Source: Antedon mediterranea
Taxonomy: Eukaryota > Animalia > Echinodermata
Direction: 5' to 3'
Length of the DNA stretch: 64,000 nucleotides
Assembly (NCBI RefSeq): GCF_964355755.1
Contig: NC_092675.1
Span: 30,972,912 to 31,036,911, forward strand
Positions 19,151 through 29,849 of this stretch are shown piece after piece; positions within the stretch are counted from its first letter, which is position 1; the number at the start of each line of letters is the position of its first letter. The notes beneath the pieces are model-generated. The model saw only the letters and a list, made by a program, of their open reading frames with translations. It had not been told where the DNA came from and did not search any database. A program made the translations under genes and the position numbers.

Positions 19151-19315
19151 TGACCAATCAGCGAGTAGATGTTATTCCTTTATAAGCACATTCCTTGATT
19201 TCTTAGCATTGGTTGTGTATTGATGAGCTCACACTAGGTAACACTAGGAAACACTAAGGTAAGTTACGTTTTATTCATTCAGTGTTTAAGAACACCAATC
19301 ACCCCGACGGTAAGT
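19151..19315 (+). promoter_or_regulatory. Candidate promoter and non-coding first exon of the peptide precursor gene
   Basis: CCAAT in TGACCAATCAG at 19154, TATA-like TTTATAAG at 19179-19186, strong donors AAG|GTAAGT (intron from 19259) and ACG|GTAAGT (from 19310). The precursor ATG lies 10 nt after an acceptor, so an upstream UTR exon is required. Confidence 0.5.
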
Positions 19316-20988
19316 AAATTTTAGTTCAACACTAAGAAATTAATTTAAAGTAATTATTACAATTTTGTAGAATTTAAAAAACAAATATATGTGTTTTGGT
19401 GAAAATACAAAATAATTGTCTTTGTATGCCAAACATTATTTATATTGTTGATATAAAGTTTGCGGTACACCACGTATCTGAGTTTCTCCACGATTCGATC
19501 AATATGCTTTAATCGTCCTCAGGAGTGAGAATGTTTTTATTTATTTATATTATTCATATTCGAAACTAATTACACGTAAAAGTAAATTGTTATGAGAAGT
19601 ATTCTCAGTTTATTAAGCCAAGTGAACTGTGTCCAATTATTGTATATTCTTCAGCTACCGTATATCTTTTTATCAACTATAACACTGCAAAACCTTTACA
19701 AATATGTGTTTGTCAATATATTCAATGTTTATTAGAAAATTAAAACTTTATATTACAAATATGTAAGTAGGCCTACAAGTGAGTAGATAGGTGTAGGTTG
19801 TTGGTTCTAGGACACAATTGCAAAACGATATTTTGAAAGAACCGAATCACTTTCTGACTGACTATGCAGCATTTTCGAATCAAGACTGATTTATTTATAG
19901 ATAGTAAGTTATTAAAGTAGTTCCCTGGTATGTGTATTAAAAAGGGCGGGGAGATGAAGTTCTAACAAGTTATGAGTTTGTTAATTATATGCATATTATT
20001 TTGTTTTATTATGAGGGCCCTTTTCACACTACGACAATATTTAATTGTAGCATTGTTGAATTAAAATAAATACTATTTATAGGACAAGTTTCTAAATACA
20101 TAACGTGTAGAATCTATAGCAGAAAAGGTCATCAACATACAAACAATAAACATGTACACAAAATATAATTACCAGTCATATAATGTTTGCTTTGCTCTGG
20201 AATGAGCATTCAATGAACTAAAAATAGTAATTAATTTCCTTTAAAATCGTTCTTAAATCGAAAGATTACGTCGTTGCAGGTCTCAGTTATAACTGTGTCG
20301 TCACCAGTGGTCATATTCATATCACACTTTAGGAACATTTAAAATCTAAAAATTATCCAATTTAAGTAAAAACACTTCAGTAAAATCCTGAAATAGCCTA
20401 GTTATTGGCTTAATTAAACTATACTTAGAATTTTTAAAGAAAACTTTCTAATGTGTGATCGGTGAATGTACAGTCAGGTTGCCATGTATTTTAGGCCTAC
20501 ATATTGTGCGTTAGGTCAGTTTTTCACTCTTCCCTGGTTAGGAATATTATTCTTGAACTTTGCACGTATTTGGTGGAACGAACTGACAGTTTCCCGAATA
20601 CACTATTGCGCATGATCGGTACGAATGGGTTATTGATAGTAAATCTTTGTGATTAGTTGAGCATTATCAGGTTGCGCCAAATTATGTGGTTGTGATTTCA
20701 TTGCGCATGAGTGATACTGTGCGCGTCGATTAGTAGTTTACGCGATGGTTAGTTTGTGCTTGATTAACTGTGCGTGTATTCGGCAAGCGGTATTAGATGT
20801 CTAATGAGTTCGTATCCAACTGGGAATGTGTTGTAGTCACAATATATGTTTTTATCGTTGATTAATTTGTAAAGATGAAAGATCGTGTAAATTTTGGTAA
20901 TAAGGATATTTCGATTTCCGACAACTTAAGAACAATTAGTTGAGTCTTGTTATTTTATTTTTCGCAGCAGGGGGAAGTTGGGACGTGC

Positions 20989-21146
20989 TCCATACTCTAT
21001 TCCTCAATACATTGTTGGTGGTTTGTAGGTACGTCCAGGCGTATGTCTCCTCCATACTCTATTCCTCAATACATTGTTGGTGGTTTGTAGGTACGTCCAG
21101 GCGTACGTCCAGGCGTATGTCCAGGCGTACGTCCAGGCGTATGTCC
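20989..21146. repeat. ~61-bp duplication plus 12-bp GTCCAGGCGTAY repeats
   Basis: Read directly from sequence. Confidence 0.88.
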
Positions 21147-21326
21147 CCAAATCGTCGGTTTTCGAAAATAGGAAGCTCCCTAATGTCAGAGCACCCTATT
21201 TCCCTAATGTTCAATTTCAACAAATACATACTTGGGCTAAATTATGTTTTATTTTGTAAAAATGTTGTAACTTCCTTGTATCAAGGAGCAACACATTCTA
21301 CTACTTAATTTAATATTTACTCGCTA

Positions 21327-21476
21327 AAGCGTGATTCCCACTAGAGACGCAACGCAATGACGTACGCGTGCAACGCAAACGAGTTGACTAATGACAAGCC
21401 ACTGTTCGAATAATCCATCGCTTGTGATTTGCCAAGCTTTACGTTGCATTACGTCTTTGCGTTGCGTCGCTAGTGA
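21327..21476. mobile_element. MITE family B copy
   Basis: AGCGTGATTCCCACTAGAGACGCAACGCAA...TTGCGTTGCGTCGCTAGTG. Confidence 0.62.
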
Positions 21477-22469
21477 AAAATAATGACATTCTCGGAGGCT
21501 AAGTGAGGATTCTCAGAACACGTTTGCAAATGTCAATTTAAGAACCGCTATTAGACATTCAGGGGTCAATTATTATTAGTCAAAGTTTAACGGCGTAGTT
21601 AACATGTTTAGACTACATAAAATTAAAGAGGACATTTACTCCGAAAATTCCTCTGTACTAGCCACTGACAACCAAACAGAAGTTGTTTAAATGGAAAAGT
21701 TAGAGAAGACATTAAACTATAGGTCTCTTTGAGAGTTGAGATCACTTAACAGTTTTGTAACATTTTTGTGGTGATCAGGCATATCAAAAGAATTAAAAGT
21801 TTATGATGGTCTCTGCTGAACATGAACGAATATCATTAAATGTCGGTCGGCGGCGGTAAATGACATACTAGCGATAATATCAATAGGCCTAAATGCCGCT
21901 CGGTAAATTACATACTAGCCGTAAAATCAGAACTTAAACGACGCATATTATGCTCTGTCAATATCGAATTCAAATCACCAACAATTTCAGAAGTAGAATA
22001 ATTATATTACCGTACTACTAAATAGGCTCAAAATTGATGCACAACTTGTTTTGGGCGCGCGCGCCATAAACTTCGTAGTGTAGGAACCATTAAAGTGACA
22101 TAATAAATGTTTAGTATTAATGAACGCACTCAAAGTCTAAACGATAGAGACGCGCATACCTTTTCACCACCGCTGATATAAATCACATGCATTGCGCTTA
22201 CGTCGTTGCGTTTGAATGCGTTGCGTTGCGTTACCAAGTGGGAATCAAGCTTAATTCATACTCGGAGGACACTATACATAGTATGTTTGTAATGAATTCC
22301 AGGTGAAATCTAACTAAACATTGTATTTAGAGTAAGTGTTTATGTAAATAATTTAAGAAAGGCGGTTGTCAAAAGTGTCCATTTTGATGAGTTGAAAGCT
22401 GAAATACATATACATTGTATTATGAAATATTAAAAAGCGAATGTTAATGAATTGACAAGTAAAATTAAT

Positions 22470-22700
22470 CTTGGTTCACGCTTGGACGCAATGAAATTAC
22501 ATAAACGCAACGTATGGGAGTTAACCAATCACAAATGACAGTTTGAATGATTCATCGCTCGTGATTGGTCAAATTACTTATGCTTGATTTCCATTAGAAA
22601 CGCAACACAAGTACGTAACAGAACGTAAGTGATTTGGTCAGAAGCGGTGGATTATTCGAACTGTCGCTTGTCATTGGTCAACTCGCTTGCGTTGCGTCTA
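22470..22700. mobile_element. Two adjacent degenerate MITE family B copies
   Basis: CTTGGTTCACGCTTGGACGCAA...ACCAATCAC...GTGATTGGTCAA, then CTTGATTTCCATTAGAAACGCAAC...TTGCGTTGCGTCT. Confidence 0.55.
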
Positions 22701-23213
22701 CCAAACGGTTGCGTACCGTATTGACCGAATAAACCGTAACGACAGTTGACTGTAAACCAAACAAGCAATTACCCCAATCACAATTAAACATTGATGAGTA
22801 GGCACACAAATTCAAATTAAATTTGATTAATTTGAGCGGTCAAAATGAGTTGCATATATATTTATTATTTTATGAATGCCAATCATTTCGTGTGAATGGA
22901 CATCTAAAAACCTACCTTCTCAAATTAATTAGTAAACCAATAGTAATTTGATCACATTGGTGGGTTCTTTACTGTGTATGAATATATCCTTCAGCAAATT
23001 TAGTTAGTTAGGCCTAATATTATATTAAGTATTAATATACTGTCATCCAGCAGACAGTCACAGACATTGGGGCTTCCGACTATGAATATTCTATACTGAT
23101 ACTAAACCACACCTGCATTTCGTTCTAAAGACACACCTTAAAGACATACCTTAAAGACACACCTTACTAGTTTTTTGCTCCCTTGGCATTGTATTTATAC
23201 ATTATACTTATTT

Positions 23214-23801
23214 TTATATAGGCCTAAACAATGTTTAAATCATGCAACATACTATGGTCTACGCCTTTATATTGGCCTAAACAATGTTTAAATCATGCAA
23301 CATACTATGGTCTACGCCTTTATATAGGCCTAAACAATGTTTAAATCATGCAACATACTATGGTCTACGCCTTTATATAGGCCTAAACAATGTTTAAATC
23401 ATGCAACATACTATGGTCTACGCCTTTATATAGGCCTAAACAATGTTTAAATCATGCAACATACTATGGTCTACGCCTTTATATAGGCCTAAACAATGTT
23501 TAAATCATGCAACATACTATGGTCTACGCCTTTATATTGGCCTAAACAATGTTTAAATCATGCAACATACTATGGTCTACGCCTTTATATAGGCCTAAAC
23601 AATGTTTAAATCATGCAACATACTATGGTCTACGCCTTTATATAGGCCTAAACAATGTTTAAATCATGCAACATACTATGTTCTACGCCTTTATATTGGC
23701 CTAAACAATGTTTAAATCATGCAACATACTATGGTCTACGCCTTTATATATATAGGCCTAAACAATGTTTAAATCATGCAACATACTATGGTCTACGCCT
23801 T
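23214..23801. repeat. 53-bp tandem repeat x11
   Basis: GGCCTAAACAATGTTTAAATCATGCAACATACTATGGTCTACGCCTTTATATA. Confidence 0.96.
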
Positions 23802-24932
23802 TGTAGTGGCTCGAACTTCAACCTTGGTTTTTTTTTTTAAAGAAGTACTAATTTTAATTGTTATTTCGTTTATGAATATTTAATTAGTTTATTTTCAACA
23901 TTTATTTTCTGTGTAAGATATTTTTGTATTTAGTCGTGTTGAGAATTAAACACTCTCTCGTCATTTCTGTATTCCTAATACAATACTGCTTGCAGTGTAG
24001 ACGAGTGTTTTAGTTTTAATTGAACATTTTTAATTATTTTTTATTTTGTAATAGCTTGTTCACTCAAACAATCTGCAGGGTTAATATAGATATCTATACT
24101 GTCATTAAATAAAGCATAAACTTTAATGAAGCCTGCTATTTGATTAGAATGTGATTAACGTGGATATTGGTTATATGCATTAATTTACGAATTCAGTTTA
24201 TTTTACACTTTTATGGCACTGCTGTGCTAACAAATTGCTCGAGTATCCATAGAGATGCTGAGTTAATTGAACATGTCCAGTCTCAAGCTCAATATTTACA
24301 TAGAGTATGTAACTTCCAACAGCAGTAGTATGGCAAATAATGTTTAATTAATTCTAACATAATCAATTTCATTTCATAATTTATTTGGTCTATTTGAATA
24401 TATACATAACAAACAAAAACTGAAATTGGGGAGACCAGGGTCAACCTAAGTGAACTGAATCACTGTAGCTGAGCCGGTTGACCCAATTATTAGGAACTTA
24501 ATAATAGTAACTTAATATTGAAACATTTCGAAGAATTCTAATCAGTTATTTGTATGTATATCATTCATTGAACATAAAAAATGCCAAATTAATCTAAACC
24601 AATGAAAACGATAGCGTACGTCATGTGACCTTCATTCAACTTGCGAACTGCATTGTTATTGGTCAGAAGTATCATTGAGTTCTATCATTGTGGCTGTACT
24701 ATCACCATGGTTTCAATAGCCTGATAGACACGTACCTGCCAATTTAAACTGTCAAATTGTTAACGTAACGTCTAAAGGTTACACGATGTGATAGTAAAAG
24801 CGTATTTACCAAAATTGGTTTTCAACGTGATGAGAAAATTAAAATCTTGCATGCTAACCTTGTGCGATGAAGAATCAAAGTTAGATTTGTATAATAATTA
24901 TGGCTCTTCACAGCTTGACGTTTTAACAATAT

Positions 24933-25112
24933 GTTGATCGCAAATAGCTTGATTTCGCCATCCCAAGGAACGTCATTGCACAATCCATGATGGGAAGGGT
25001 TTGGGAGCAAACGTAATGACGCGTACGTACAAATAACAAATCATGTACGTACGCGTCGTGACGTTTACTCAAACCCTTCCCATCATGCATCGCGCACGCT
25101 ATTTGCGATAAA
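24933..25112. mobile_element. Palindromic element family C; inverted relative at 17631-17760
   Basis: TTGATCGCAAATAGC...GCTATTTGCGATAAA ends, nested hairpin ATGATGGGAAGGGTTTG...GACGCGTACGTACA..TGTACGTACGCGTC...CAAACCCTTCCCATCAT. Confidence 0.62.
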
Positions 25113-25380
25113 TAGAACGTACCTTAAACATTGTTAATATATCTCTGTTGTACCACTCTCCAACCTGGATCATCAATGTAATATGTTACATATTTAATTT
25201 GCCTAATTTAGTTGTATTACTTAGAATCGGTGACCAAAACTTAAAGTTCACTCACATTGTTTATGTCTGATGAGTGAATAGCTGCTTGATTACTATTATG
25301 TGACCCATCGCATTTACAAGTTGTATTTTCTGCTGACTGACGTTCTTATTCAAATCTTATTCTTTTCTAGACTCTTCAAA

Positions 25381-27315
25381 ATGTACGTGACATTTGCACT
25401 CATTCTTATACTAGTTCCAAATGGAATTTTGTCAGCCGAAAGTGTTATCGGCACAGAACCGGAAAAAGTACTCGTGAAACCAGTAAATACTAAATGTGAC
25501 AATGAAAAGGCCACAGATACAACAACTACGAAAAGTTCAGGATGTGTTGTGAGTGGTGATACAAAGGATTCAGATGAAAAACGAGGAAATTATTTTCAAC
25601 GTTTGCAAAAGGATACAAAAGAAATTAGCGACGACAAGGAAGACGACAAACGGGCCAACTATCACCGTCGACTAAGAAGTGACGGTGACGACGTTGAGAA
25701 GGAACCTGAAAAACGCGGCAATTTCCATCGACGTCTAAGAATGGATGAAACGGACATGGCGGCAAATAAAAGAGCAAATGACTTTGACGAAAGCGAGATG
25801 ACAGAAGAAGAAAAGAGAGCAAATTACTTTCGGCGTCCAAGGCCACGAGCGGCGGACGAAAGCGAGATGACAGAAGAGGAAAAGAGGGCAAATTACTTTC
25901 AGCGTCCAAGGCCACGAGCAGCGGACGAAAGCGAGATGACAGAAGAGGAAAAGAGAGCAAATTACTTTCGGCGTCCACGGCCACGAGCAGCGGACGAAAG
26001 CGAGATGACAGAAGAGGAAAAGAGAGCAAATTACTTTCGGCGTCCAAGGCCACGAGCGGCGGACGAAAGCGAGATGACAGAAGAGGAAAAGAGAGCCAAT
26101 TACTTTCGGCGTCCAAGGCCACGAGCGGCGGACGAAAGCGAGATGACAGAAGAGGAAAAGAGAGCCAATTACTTTCGGCGTCCAAGGCCACGAGCGGCGG
26201 ACGAAAGCGAGATGACAGAAGAGGAAAAGAGAGCAAATTACTTTCGGCGTCCAAGGCCACGAGCGGCGGACGAAAGCGAGATGACAGAAGAGGAAAAGAG
26301 GGCAAATTACTTTCGGCGTCCAAGGCCGCGATCGGCGGACGAAAGCGAGATGACAGAAGAGGAAAAGAGAGCCAATTACTTTCGGCGTCCAAGGCCGCGA
26401 GCAGCGGACGAAAGCGACATGACAGAAGAGGAAAAGAGAGCCAATTATTTTCGGCGTCCAAGGCCACGAGCATCGGACGAAAGCGAGATGACAGAAGAAG
26501 AAAAGAGGGCAAATTACTTTCGGCGTCCAAGGCCACGAACGGCGGACGAAAGCGAGATGACAGAAGAGGAAAAGAGGGCAAATTACTTTCGGCGTCCAAG
26601 GCCACGAGCGGCGGACGAAAGCGAGATGACAGAAGAGGAAAAGAGGGCAAATTACTTTCGGCGTCCAAGGCCGCGATCGGCCGACGAAAGCGAGATGACA
26701 GAAGAGGAAAAGAGAGCCAATTATTTTCGGCGCCCAAGGCCACGAGCGGCGGACGAAAGCGAGATGACAGAAGAGGAAAAGAGAGCAAATTACTTTGACG
26801 AAAGCGAGATGACAGAAGAGGAAAAGAGAGCAAATTACTTTCGGCGTCCAAGGCCGCGAGCGGCGGACGAAAGCGAGATGACAGAAGAAGAAAAGAGAGC
26901 AAATTACTTTCGGCGTCCAAGGCCACGAGCGGCGGACGAAGGCGAGATGACAGAAGAGGAAAAGAGAGCAAATTACTTTCGGCGTCCAAGGCCACGAGCG
27001 GCGGAAGAAAGCGATATGACAGAAGAGGAAAAGAGGGCAAATTACTTTCGGCGTCCAAGGCCACGAGCGGCGGACGAAAGCGAGATGACAGAAGAGGAAA
27101 AGAGAGCCAATTACTTTCGGCGTCCAAGGCCTCGAGCGGCGGAAGAAAGCGATATGACAGAAGAGGAAAAGAGGGCAAATTACTTTCGGCGTCCAAGGCC
27201 GCGATCGGCGGACGAAAGCGAGATGACAGAAGAGGAAAAGAGAGCCAATTATTTTCGCCGTCCTCGTCCACGTCCACGAAAAGATACAAAAGCTGTAGCT
27301 GAAGAGAATAATTAA
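25381..27315 (+). CDS. Secreted multi-copy peptide precursor, AN-peptide-like neuropeptide precursor, 644 aa, single coding exon
   Basis: Acceptor ttttctag ends at 25370, then ATG at 25381. Hydrophobic signal peptide MYVTFALILILVPNGILS, acidic propeptide, KR-preceded peptides GNYFQRLQ, ANYHRRLR, GNFHRRLR, then 69-bp/23-aa units KR-ANYFRRPRPR-AADESEMTEEE. N-terminal AN followed by aromatic and basic residues matches the echinoderm AN-peptide family. AATAAA at ~27361, 27376, 27749, 27874. Confidence 0.88.
   Translation: MYVTFALILILVPNGILSAESVIGTEPEKVLVKPVNTKCDNEKATDTTTTKSSGCVVSGDTKDSDEKRGNYFQRLQKDTKEISDDKEDDKRANYHRRLRSDGDDVEKEPEKRGNFHRRLRMDETDMAANKRANDFDESEMTEEEKRANYFRRPRPRAADESEMTEEEKRANYFQRPRPRAADESEMTEEEKRANYFRRPRPRAADESEMTEEEKRANYFRRPRPRAADESEMTEEEKRANYFRRPRPRAADESEMTEEEKRANYFRRPRPRAADESEMTEEEKRANYFRRPRPRAADESEMTEEEKRANYFRRPRPRSADESEMTEEEKRANYFRRPRPRAADESDMTEEEKRANYFRRPRPRASDESEMTEEEKRANYFRRPRPRTADESEMTEEEKRANYFRRPRPRAADESEMTEEEKRANYFRRPRPRSADESEMTEEEKRANYFRRPRPRAADESEMTEEEKRANYFDESEMTEEEKRANYFRRPRPRAADESEMTEEEKRANYFRRPRPRAADEGEMTEEEKRANYFRRPRPRAAEESDMTEEEKRANYFRRPRPRAADESEMTEEEKRANYFRRPRPRAAEESDMTEEEKRANYFRRPRPRSADESEMTEEEKRANYFRRPRPRPRKDTKAVAEENN
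25783..27280 (+). repeat. Coding 69-bp tandem array inside the peptide precursor
   Basis: First ANYF codon at 25819, last at 27244: 1425 nt = 20 x 69 + one 45-nt deleted unit. Differences between units are mostly synonymous or in the spacer. Confidence 0.97.
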
Positions 27316-29849
27316 CAAAACATTTGAACAATTACGTCATCCAAATATTATGACGTCAAAAATAAACTATTAAAAAATAAAACAAATCTGTTATTATGAA
27401 TTATGAAAATTATCTCTGTGGTAGCAGTGTTAGTGATGAAAAAAATCCGATAAACGACGAGTATTTTTCTATTAGACTAAAGTATTAGTAGGCCTAGACA
27501 AAAATGAATCGTGAATTTTAGAAAATGTATTAATGACATTCACATACAATTCATTTGTTTTGTTCTTGTTGTATAATGTTGTAGACCGCAAGTGTGTCAC
27601 GAGAGACATTCAGATTCATCGCCCTGTTAGATACTACCCAAGCAGACAATAGGGTGGGGGATATGTGAAGAAATTAAATCAATACGTCATGATACGCATT
27701 TAAGAAAGTTGTAAATAGAAAACTTAAATTTAAATATGTATATTGCAATATAAAAATATTTTAAATTGATTAATTTATTAACTAAATAATGTGTAAATGT
27801 TAATTAATGTAAAGAATAAGATGCTCTATAATGTGTGATTGTGTTAGACGATAGTCCTGTGTTGAAATGACGTAATAAAATGTTGATGCAATTGCGTAAC
27901 GTGTCAGTTTGCTCGTTGAAAGCGCTATCTCATCAAATGACGTCACAAATTCGGTTGTTTTATTTTGTTAATCTTTACGACCCCGATTTATCGTAAGGAC
28001 TCTCTCTATGGTTATGCTTTATTACGTCATCAAGTTCATTAATATATCCCATAATGTTCGACCAATTTTGTAACAAAGTTTACAAAACTTTTCCAACAAT
28101 CTCAAAAGAATGCCAAAGGGATTGTTGTTGAGCGTGATGAGAAGAAGCGGGAAAATCTTGAATTTTGAGGTACAAACAAAACGAACCATGCAATCTTCGT
28201 CGTAACCAACTCGCTAAGCATCCGTGTCGAATTCTCATATTGCTCAATATTAAAGTCGACACATACTCAATGTTTCGGTTCATTTCCTTAACTTCAGCTA
28301 AATAGCTCTTTCAGAAAAGAAAATTTATCTTTTATAAACTTACTAAAATGAAATTGAAAATTCTTTTCTATATAATTCAAATCTCTAAATTTCAGCAATG
28401 TTAATGCTATGTATAGTTTTTGTTTGTGTTGTATGATCGGATGCGTGTGCAGTTTTAATATCGCGTTAGTAACGCACATTAGTGAGTTTTCATAATAAAG
28501 CAAATTAGTCTACATGTATATCTTAAGGCAAATGAAACTAAGTTGAACAAACAAATCATGTCGAATCCATCGCTTTAGTGAAGGAAATCTCATATCGTTT
28601 GACACATTTTCATTAATTTAACTGCCTAGATTGTTGGAGACTTTCGCCAAAATGTCATCGGATACTATCAAATCAAATCAAATGATGCGGACGGACGGTC
28701 CGTATCTAGAACGCGTACACATATTTTGTAACGTATGGCAATAATATCGCACGCCAAAGCATAATGACGTTTCCGGGCGATAATTGAGAGTAAACAAAAC
28801 TGAATCGTCATTTAAAAAACGTATTTTAAGCAATAAAGGTTTAATATAGTTGGCCTCCTAAGTCCTTTCATTACAGATTAGTACGACGTAACAGTACGTT
28901 GATCTTTAATTGCATGATGCTCTTCAAATTAGAAATAGAAAACAAATTACAATACACTTAGAGATGTTTGAAAAAGGATTCTGTTTGCGCTCTGAATGTT
29001 ACGATGGGAAGACGATGGTTGTTGTGCTACTAATTAAAAACCCCACTCTTTGCCCCTCCTAGTTCACGTACCGTTCGTTTATAATGTTATGGTATGCTTA
29101 AATATTTAATCTATTGTTAGTCCATTCTTTCGACTCTCTCATACCACTGTTAAACAATGTATCACCTGGTGCATATAACCCGGCTCAATTAAGGGAGCTA
29201 TTTGAAAGCAAACATTGCGGGTAAAATTGACACACCGCCCGCCCCACCACATACACGCGAACAACACAGGCACTTTTTATTCCAAAATAATAATAAGTAG
29301 TTTAGTGCTGCGAGTACCTGATGCATGTGAATGCACAAATTATCTATAAATTAATGAAGTTGTATTTAAAATCGTTGGTTTTATTGATGGTATCCCACAC
29401 TAATGGCACATAACTATACAACTTGATTACTTTTCATCCCCAATGATGTGTGTTTAATCGCCGCTATTGCATTACCAACCAAATCACCTCCCCACAGACC
29501 ACATCAACTCTTTTATCAGTTTTTTTTTCGTTAAGGAAAATGAGTATTCGAAAGGGAATGTAGTAGTTGTCATGCATAACTTCCAGTTGACTCGTATCCT
29601 ATATTTTAATGTTGAGCACCTTTAGTGAATCAATAGTTGTATTTATTTATCTCATTAAATGTACATCATCTGTTTTCAAACGAAGAAGCTCAACGATAAT
29701 GATACAGTTATCATAATGATAGATAACTTTATTTAGAGCTTTCATTTGAACCTTTCAATATGCTCGTTGGACCTATCCAAACAATTCACCCACATCGGGC
29801 CAAAACCGCTAAATATACCTCATTAAATTTCTAAATTTAAAAAAATCTA

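What the first reader, a model, noticed from the sequence alone, without database searches (positions are those of the whole stretch)
25381..27315. Highly amplified AN-type precursor releasing ~21 copies of a non-amidated Arg/Pro peptide, ANYFRRPRP(R)
Seen: signal peptide, three divergent KR-preceded peptides (GNYFQRLQ, ANYHRRLR, GNFHRRLR), then 21 copies of ANYF(R/Q)RPRPR, each preceded by KR and followed by an acidic spacer; no copy has a Gly amide donor or a C-terminal dibasic site. Known: AN peptides are an echinoderm family of poorly characterised neuropeptides (sea-urchin forms resemble ANYFRGRGRKP), and I know of no established receptor. Inference: this is a divergent member with an RPRPR C-terminus, released at a monobasic Arg (P6 is Arg), and the Pro before the final Arg may block carboxypeptidase trimming. 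This looks like an orphan peptide signalling system with very high dose per precursor.
Basis: partly seen in the sequence, partly recalled or inferred. Interest (0 to 1): 0.85.

Follow-up and report, generated by a model that had tools for sequence, protein, structure and literature searches.

The report
Feather-star AN neuropeptide precursor, completed
This is the full-length version of an already published feather-star gene (PCNP1, AN-peptide family) whose protein carries 21 copies of a short arginine/proline peptide that is likely cut out and released by nerve cells; the gene and family are known, and only the repeated part was missing from the published fragment.

Summary
In detail: a 644-aa ORF with a hydrophobic N-terminus, three divergent KR-preceded peptides and 21 KR-ANYF(R/Q)RPRPR copies, none followed by Gly. 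The gene is already published. Residues 1-145 match, by eye, the partial Antedon mediterranea PCNP1 that Aleotti 2022 files as the crinoid AN-peptide precursor. That transcript stops just before the first repeat and is spliced from a non-coding exon ending at 19258, so the gene is expressed. Gly-less, Pro-Arg-ended AN peptides already appear in the Florometra (ANYxRRPR) and Anneissia sequences of the same paper. The Antedon form adds two residues. Those relatives help fix the product: 12 of 18 Anneissia copies have a basic pair directly after Pro-Arg. With carboxypeptidase E blocked by penultimate Pro, the likely mature peptide is ANYFRRPRPR-OH, keeping its Arg. Repeat variation is synonymous in the peptide (6 synonymous, 1 replacement) but not in the spacer (3, 7). 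Processing, receptor and function are untested; I found no receptor paper. Verdict: known gene, completed; low interest.

The parts
19154..19186 (+). Candidate core promoter: CCAAT at 19154 and TATA-like TATAAG at 19181, about 35 nt upstream of the first transcribed base seen (inferred)
   Evidence: Sequence only; not tested
19219..19258 (+). Non-coding exon 1 (minimum extent) of PCNP1
   Evidence: A 20-nt motif from the published transcript's 5' UTR has one exact match at 19239-19258 (0 expected by chance); by eye 39 of 40 nt match the transcript's first 40 nt
19259..25370 (+). 6112-nt GT-AG intron in the 5' UTR
   Evidence: Donor GTAAGT and acceptor TTCTTTTCTAG; the published transcript joins the two sides
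25381..27315 (+). Single-exon CDS of the 644-aa AN-peptide precursor PCNP1 (exon 2 begins at 25371)
   Evidence: residues 1-145 match published AmedPCNP1 by eye
25381..25437 (+). Predicted signal peptide (about residues 1-19; cut site inferred)
   Evidence: Hydropathy; conserved in three crinoids; a predicted signal peptide was a selection criterion in the paper
25585..25611 (+). Divergent peptide GNYFQRLQ(K)
   Evidence: in the published fragment
25654..25677 (+). Divergent peptide ANYHRRLR (P4 Arg)
   Evidence: a contig of run X6 (organism B) skips 25658-25690 in frame, removing this core
25717..25740 (+). Divergent peptide GNFHRRLR (P4 Arg)
25774..25812 (+). Degenerate copy without the basic core (ANDF plus spacer)
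25819..27282 (+). Array of 69-nt units: 21 copies of ANYF(R/Q)RPRPR, each after KR and before an acidic spacer; the last copy ends RPRPRK
   Evidence: mean pairwise unit identity 0.949; 15 distinct sequences among 20 full units
26785..26823 (+). Degenerate copy without the basic core (ANYF plus spacer; 45-nt unit)
27316..27890 (+). Likely 3' UTR (end approximate; AATAAA at 27874)
   Evidence: Signal positions; deep contigs of runs X1 and X5 stop at 27751 and 27826 while the flat run X6 goes on (a weak hint only)

Best explanation
This is the complete gene for the published feather-star AN-peptide precursor PCNP1: a spliced transcript encoding a predicted secreted protein that is likely cut into about 21 copies of an unamidated decapeptide, ANYFRRPRPR, which probably acts as a neuropeptide on an unidentified receptor. 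Shown: the ORF, the repeats, the intron and a transcript covering residues 1-145. Inferred steps: (1) the signal peptide sends it into the secretory pathway of neurons; (2) a prohormone convertase cuts after each KR, giving the Ala-Asn start; (3) it cuts again after the last Arg of RRPRPR, a single-Arg site with Arg at P6 and a small residue at P1', while the inner Arg-Pro bonds resist cutting; (4) carboxypeptidase E/D cannot remove an Arg that follows Pro, so the peptide keeps a free Pro-Arg end and, with no Gly, is not amidated; (5) the acidic 11-mer spacers (net -6 against +4) are by-products; (6) the peptide signals through a GPCR, as most neuropeptides do. The copy number likely grew by unequal crossing-over of a 69-nt unit.
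For: Residues 1-145 match AmedPCNP1 by eye, and the paper assigns PCNP1 to the AN family. The transcript is spliced across a canonical GT-AG intron. Purifying selection acts on the peptide, not the spacer (Fisher P=0.025). Counting by hand, all 18 Anneissia copies end their basic core in Pro-Arg. Twelve carry a basic pair there (7 PRK, 5 PRKR), which marks the boundary, and 5 of the 6 single-Arg copies have P4 Arg. Ten Florometra copies read ANYxRRPR with P4 Arg. The Antedon +2 extension keeps an upstream Arg at an even position (P6). CPE removes basic residues except after a penultimate Pro (PMC5434747), and human CPD did not cut Phe-Pro-Arg (PMC5683605). The one AN peptide I saw reported from MS, sea-cucumber ANRYNALR, is unamidated and Arg-ended. 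AN precursor mRNA or peptide is neuronal in sea-urchin and starfish larvae.
Against: No crinoid AN peptide has been shown by MS in the papers I read; the authors ask for such tests. The Q copy lacks a P4 or P6 basic residue, and one Anneissia copy (GNYYLHPR) also fits no upstream-Arg rule. The even-spacing rule for single-Arg sites is recalled; my search for a citable source found none. The CPE/CPD data are mammalian. ANRYNALR ends Leu-Arg, so it does not test the Pro block. Neuronal expression is shown for other classes, not for crinoids. Identity to the published fragment was read by eye. Copy number rests on one assembly of a 1.5-kb tandem array.
Confidence: 0.72

Rival explanations
1. Same gene and family, but only the KR sites are cut. 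The released peptide is the 21-mer ANYFRRPRPR plus acidic spacer (net -2), or a form trimmed later by other proteases.
For: KR is the only classical site in 20 of 21 copies. Sea-cucumber peptidomics found longer-than-predicted peptides and acidic flanks pointing to other proteases (PMC11868395).
Against: The spacer tolerates replacements (7 replacement against 3 synonymous variants) and differs between species while the Pro-Arg end is kept. Five Anneissia copies have KR directly after Pro-Arg.
Confidence: 0.14
2. The single-Arg cut happens, but the Arg is then removed, giving ANYFRRPRP-OH (M 1175.631).
For: Carboxypeptidase trimming is the default after a convertase cut (PMC5434747); crinoid enzymes are untested.
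Against: Penultimate Pro blocks CPE and CPD in the mammalian data; the sea-cucumber MS peptide kept its Arg.
Confidence: 0.08
3. The cationic Arg/Pro peptide is mainly a defence (proline-rich antimicrobial-type) peptide or an externally released cue rather than a neural signal.
For: Net +4 and Arg-Pro repeats recall proline-rich antimicrobial peptides made from multi-copy precursors with acidic spacers (recalled, not tested). In crown-of-thorns starfish the AN precursor is listed as female-biased in sensory tentacles (PMC9759900).
Against: Orthologues are in neurons in sea urchin and starfish. The conserved part across classes is the AN/GN start, not the Pro content. The peptide has only ten residues.
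Confidence: 0.05
4. The ORF is an accidental open minisatellite or an assembly artefact.
For: The window is rich in tandem repeats (48 rows); protein database searches were blank.
Against: A spliced transcript, orthologues in two other crinoids, a synonymous bias and 15 distinct units among 20. Contigs of runs X1, X5 and X6 carry the same repeat.
Confidence: 0.01

Closest known systems
Antedon mediterranea PCNP1 (Aleotti et al. 2022, PMC9793003, supplementary files 2-4)
   Same: Residues 1-145 identical by eye; the 5' UTR matches exon 1 (39 of 40 nt) and the start of exon 2. This is the same gene, or that of a near-identical congener.
   Different: The published contig is 486 nt and ends before the first ANYFRRPRPR copy; the remaining 499 residues, the copy count and the intron are not in those files.
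Florometra serratissima PCNP1 (partial) and Anneissia japonica PCNP1 (XP_033115130.1, 411 aa, annotated 'trichohyalin-like')
   Same: Same signal peptide, cysteine pair and KR-AN/GN-peptide-acidic-spacer layout. No Gly donors; cores end in Pro-Arg. Florometra has ANYFRRPR itself; Anneissia has 18 copies, two of them GN.
   Different: Antedon adds one Pro-Arg (RRPRPR against RRPR) and is more homogeneous (20 identical copies). Anneissia alternates three peptide types, 12 of 18 with a basic pair at the end.
Eleutherozoan AN-peptide precursors (SpANPP, ArANPP, AjANPP, ophiuroid AN)
   Same: Multi-copy precursors with KR before an AN/GN start, a basic C-terminal half and acidic spacers. The sea-cucumber copies I read also run to a single Arg before the acidic spacer. 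No receptor reported in what I read.
   Different: The brittle-star copies I read mostly end in GKR (amidation signal), and 3 of 6 starfish peptides have a C-terminal Gly; the crinoid peptides have none and are Pro-rich.

Membership tests
Echinoderm AN-peptide precursors | Several peptides starting Ala-Asn (or Gly-Asn) directly after a dibasic site | tested here: met
   All 26 KR sites are followed by AN (24) or GN (2); definition
Echinoderm AN-peptide precursors | N-terminal signal peptide | tested here: inconclusive
   Single N-terminal hydrophobic stretch, conserved in three crinoids; no SignalP run; a predicted signal peptide was a criterion in the paper
Echinoderm AN-peptide precursors | Orthology to a precursor already assigned to the family | tested here: met
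   145 of 145 residues match AmedPCNP1 by eye; the paper assigns PCNP1 to the AN family
Echinoderm AN-peptide precursors | Transcribed gene | tested here: met
   The published transcript is spliced across the 19259-25370 intron; it covers residues 1-145 only
Echinoderm AN-peptide precursors | Expression in neurons | not testable with these tools
   Shown for sea urchin and starfish; I found no crinoid data
Echinoderm AN-peptide precursors | Processed peptides present in tissue | not testable with these tools
   Needs mass spectrometry; I saw only the sea-cucumber ANRYNALR report
Amidated neuropeptides | Gly before the C-terminal basic site | tested here: not met
   0 of 24 copies with a basic core
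Tachykinin-type precursors | Amidated C-terminal FxGxR/FxGLM-type motif (recalled) | tested here: not met
   No Gly or amide motif in the copies; the Atlas feature score of 0.81 is below the 0.9 lead level; Semmens 2016 treats the likeness as probable convergence
Proline-rich antimicrobial peptides | Antibacterial activity and expression in immune tissue | not testable with these tools
   Only the composition resembles them (recalled)

The most novel reading that the evidence does not exclude
Crinoid AN peptides are a uniform class of unamidated ligands ending in a carboxypeptidase-proof Pro-Arg. This basic, amide-free end may be the ancestral echinoderm state, with amidation in brittle stars and starfish secondary. 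ANYFRRPRPR, made in 20 identical copies per precursor, would then be the cleanest probe so far for finding the orphan AN-peptide receptor and linking the family to a bilaterian signalling system.
Probability: 0.3. Interest if true: 0.45.

Novelty: already known. Interest (0 to 1): 0.2.

Why it matters
It matters modestly. AN peptides are one of the few echinoderm neuropeptide families with no function or receptor in the papers I read. Antedon mediterranea is being set up as the crinoid model (PMC11336682, search listing). The published fragment contains none of the main peptide, so anyone working from it would synthesise the wrong ligands. The full gene supplies the dominant peptide, a specific MS target (ANYFRRPRPR, M 1331.732) and the gene structure. 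It does not reveal a new system.

Tried and rejected
Protein searches gave nothing: the search for homologous proteins on the whole protein (0 of 7991 scored) and on residues 1-190 (0 of 6044), both limited to 354-1127 aa; representatives search with residues 1-192 (0 hits); exact look-up (absent). These collections evidently lack the crinoid orthologues that the paper lists, so the blanks are not evidence of novelty. The Pfam hit to Nitr_red_alph_N (E 2.6e-17) is rejected: 0 stretches pass on their own, so the score is summed over repeats. The ESM Atlas holds this exact sequence. Its five listed feature hits are all multi-copy neuropeptide precursors but score 0.75-0.81 (leads only), and its structure hits are uninformative (TM by query at most 0.25). 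No whole genome is held, so paralogues, convertases and receptors were not searched. Sequencing runs: no RNA holder listed. X1 and X5 cover the CDS and 3' UTR deeply and the flanks thinly, but they are contigs of unrecorded type and count only as a weak hint. No contig crossed the splice junction in the stretch laid. The short-motif literature search returned noise. PMC5943159 (sea-urchin MS) is not held and Rowe and Elphick 2012 was not seen, so sea-urchin AN sequences are unverified here. No source for the single-Arg rule was found. Earlier scan findings: none. No structure or complex prediction was run, since the precursor is disordered and no receptor candidate exists.

Full report
Observation. 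The + strand 25381-27315 gives a 644-aa protein with no internal stop. It has 26 KR pairs, each followed by AN (24) or GN (2). None of the 24 copies with a basic core has a Gly after it. The only hydrophobic segment is at the N-terminus. SignalP could not be run.

It is a real coding gene. Among the 20 full units, the ten peptide codons carry 6 synonymous and 1 replacement variants (binomial P=0.0025 against site counts), the spacer 3 and 7 (P=0.21), and KR 1 and 0. Peptide plus KR against spacer gives Fisher P=0.025; distinct variants were counted once and the copies are not independent. The terminal copy differs from the consensus at 7 of 30 bases, all silent.

Identity. The supplements of Aleotti et al. 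2022 (PMC9793003; I read passages, section 36, rows of files 2 and 3 and all of file 4; Figure 8 and image content were not seen, and table cells are cut at 400 characters) list Antedon mediterranea PCNP1 as a 145-aa partial protein. By eye it matches residues 1-145 here exactly. The paper calls PCNP1 the crinoid homologue of AN-peptide precursors. The published contig is 486 nt. Its 5' end leaves the genome at the AG at 25369-25370, and a 20-nt motif from that end matches once in the window, at 19239-19258 (0 expected by chance). That match is followed by GTAAGT, and by eye 39 of the first 40 transcript bases match 19219-19258. So the gene has a non-coding first exon, a 6112-nt GT-AG intron and a single coding exon, and it is transcribed and spliced. 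The contig ends one residue before the first ANYFRRPRPR. RPRPR has 0 hits in the paper's 7 text supplements, and ANYFRRPR has 0 hits in the main texts of the listed papers. The array itself therefore appears unpublished in what I could search.

Sequencing runs. None is on record as RNA. Contigs of X1 and X5 (organism A) match the CDS start with 0-1 differences, at depth 541 and 167. Their deep cover at the 3' end stops at 27751 and 27826, with depth 3-4 beyond, while X6 (organism B) runs on flat at about 205. With an AATAAA at 27874 this hints weakly at a 3' UTR of about 570 nt. Organism B, a close relative, has the same RRPRPR repeat and an in-frame 33-nt deletion that removes the ANYHRRLR core.

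How unusual is the peptide? The same paper gives Florometra PCNP1 with 10 copies of ANYxRRPR (3 of them ANYFRRPR) before acidic spacers, and Anneissia PCNP1 with 18 copies (counted by hand). None has a Gly donor. All 18 Anneissia cores end in Pro-Arg: 7 as PRK, 5 as PRKR and 6 as a single Arg, of which 5 have Arg at P4 and one has no upstream basic residue. The Antedon peptide is the Florometra octapeptide plus one Pro-Arg. Outside crinoids, the sea-cucumber precursor row that I read (cut at 400 of 555 residues) has copies running to a single Arg before acidic spacers (PMC6586643 supplement). MS in that species found an unamidated, Arg-ended AN peptide, ANRYNALR, which the authors called unexpected (section 32). 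Brittle-star copies mostly end in GKR (PMC5627052 supplement passages), and 3 of 6 starfish peptides have Gly (PMC4772807 passage).

Mechanism. Shown: gene, splicing, repeats, selection. Inferred: secretion; a convertase cut after each KR; and a second cut after the last Arg of RRPRPR. The second cut rests on the recalled rule that single-Arg sites need a basic residue at P4, P6 or P8 and no Pro at P1'; I found no citable source for it. The Anneissia copies with KR right after Pro-Arg independently place the boundary there. Carboxypeptidase E removes basic residues except after a penultimate Pro (PMC5434747 passage), and human CPD showed no activity on Phe-Pro-Arg (PMC5683605 passages). PRK, PRKR and PR ends would therefore all converge on a free Pro-Arg. 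The most likely product is ANYFRRPRPR-OH (net +4), with an acidic 11-mer (net -6) as by-product. A neural role is inferred from sea-urchin and starfish larvae, where AN mRNA or peptide marks neurons (passages of PMC6224346, PMC6209648 and PMC8427176). Other expression notes are female-biased sensory tentacles in crown-of-thorns starfish (PMC9759900 passage) and the pentactula stage in sea cucumber (PMC9598280 passages). No crinoid expression or MS data turned up. A GPCR target is assumed from general knowledge. Searches listed no AN-peptide receptor paper; subscription journals are not covered.

Against this reading. There is no peptide-level evidence in crinoids. The Q copy and one Anneissia copy fit no upstream-Arg rule. 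Sea-cucumber peptidomics shows that predicted peptides are often absent and longer forms present (PMC11868395 abstract, section 5 and passages), which keeps the 21-mer rival alive. Copy number rests on one assembly. Protein databases returned nothing, the Pfam hit is a repeat artefact, and the Atlas hits are sub-threshold leads towards multi-copy neuropeptide precursors in general. Supplementary figures that are images (for example the cross-class AN alignment, Chen 2019 Fig. 1U) and the sea-urchin MS paper were not seen. They could bear on how widespread unamidated AN peptides are.

Verdict. This is a known gene of a known family, here seen complete. The useful additions are the dominant peptide, the gene structure and the argument for a Pro-Arg-OH end. 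Novelty: already known. Interest 0.2.

Noticed in passing
window 24950-25112 (intron): A hairpin element with two nested 27-nt arm pairs (24977-25096). Many deep, diverged contigs in all four runs laid pile on it, so it is a high-copy dispersed repeat, probably MITE-like.
   Followed up: partly
window 24365-24490 (intron): A second high-copy dispersed repeat, judged from contig pile-up in all four runs.
   Followed up: no
window 21370-22695 (intron): 58-nt inverted arms 1210 nt apart, 90% complementary, with a nested 26-nt pair at 21339-21475; a possible non-autonomous DNA transposon.
   Followed up: no
window 25658-25690: A contig of run X6 (organism B) lacks these 33 nt in frame, deleting the ANYHRRLR core. 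Together with the two core-less copies in the window, this shows repeated in-frame loss of peptide cores.
   Followed up: partly
window 25495-25548: Two cysteines in the pro-region (residues 39 and 56) are kept in all three crinoid PCNP1 proteins; a possible disulphide loop of unknown role.
   Followed up: no
window 1-64000: AT-rich and dense in minisatellites (48 rows); the other ORFs of 100 aa or more mostly overlap these repeats. Neighbouring genes were not annotated.
   Followed up: no
PMC9793003 supplement 3: The Anneissia orthologue is annotated in RefSeq as 'trichohyalin-like', so automatic names hide this family.
   Followed up: no
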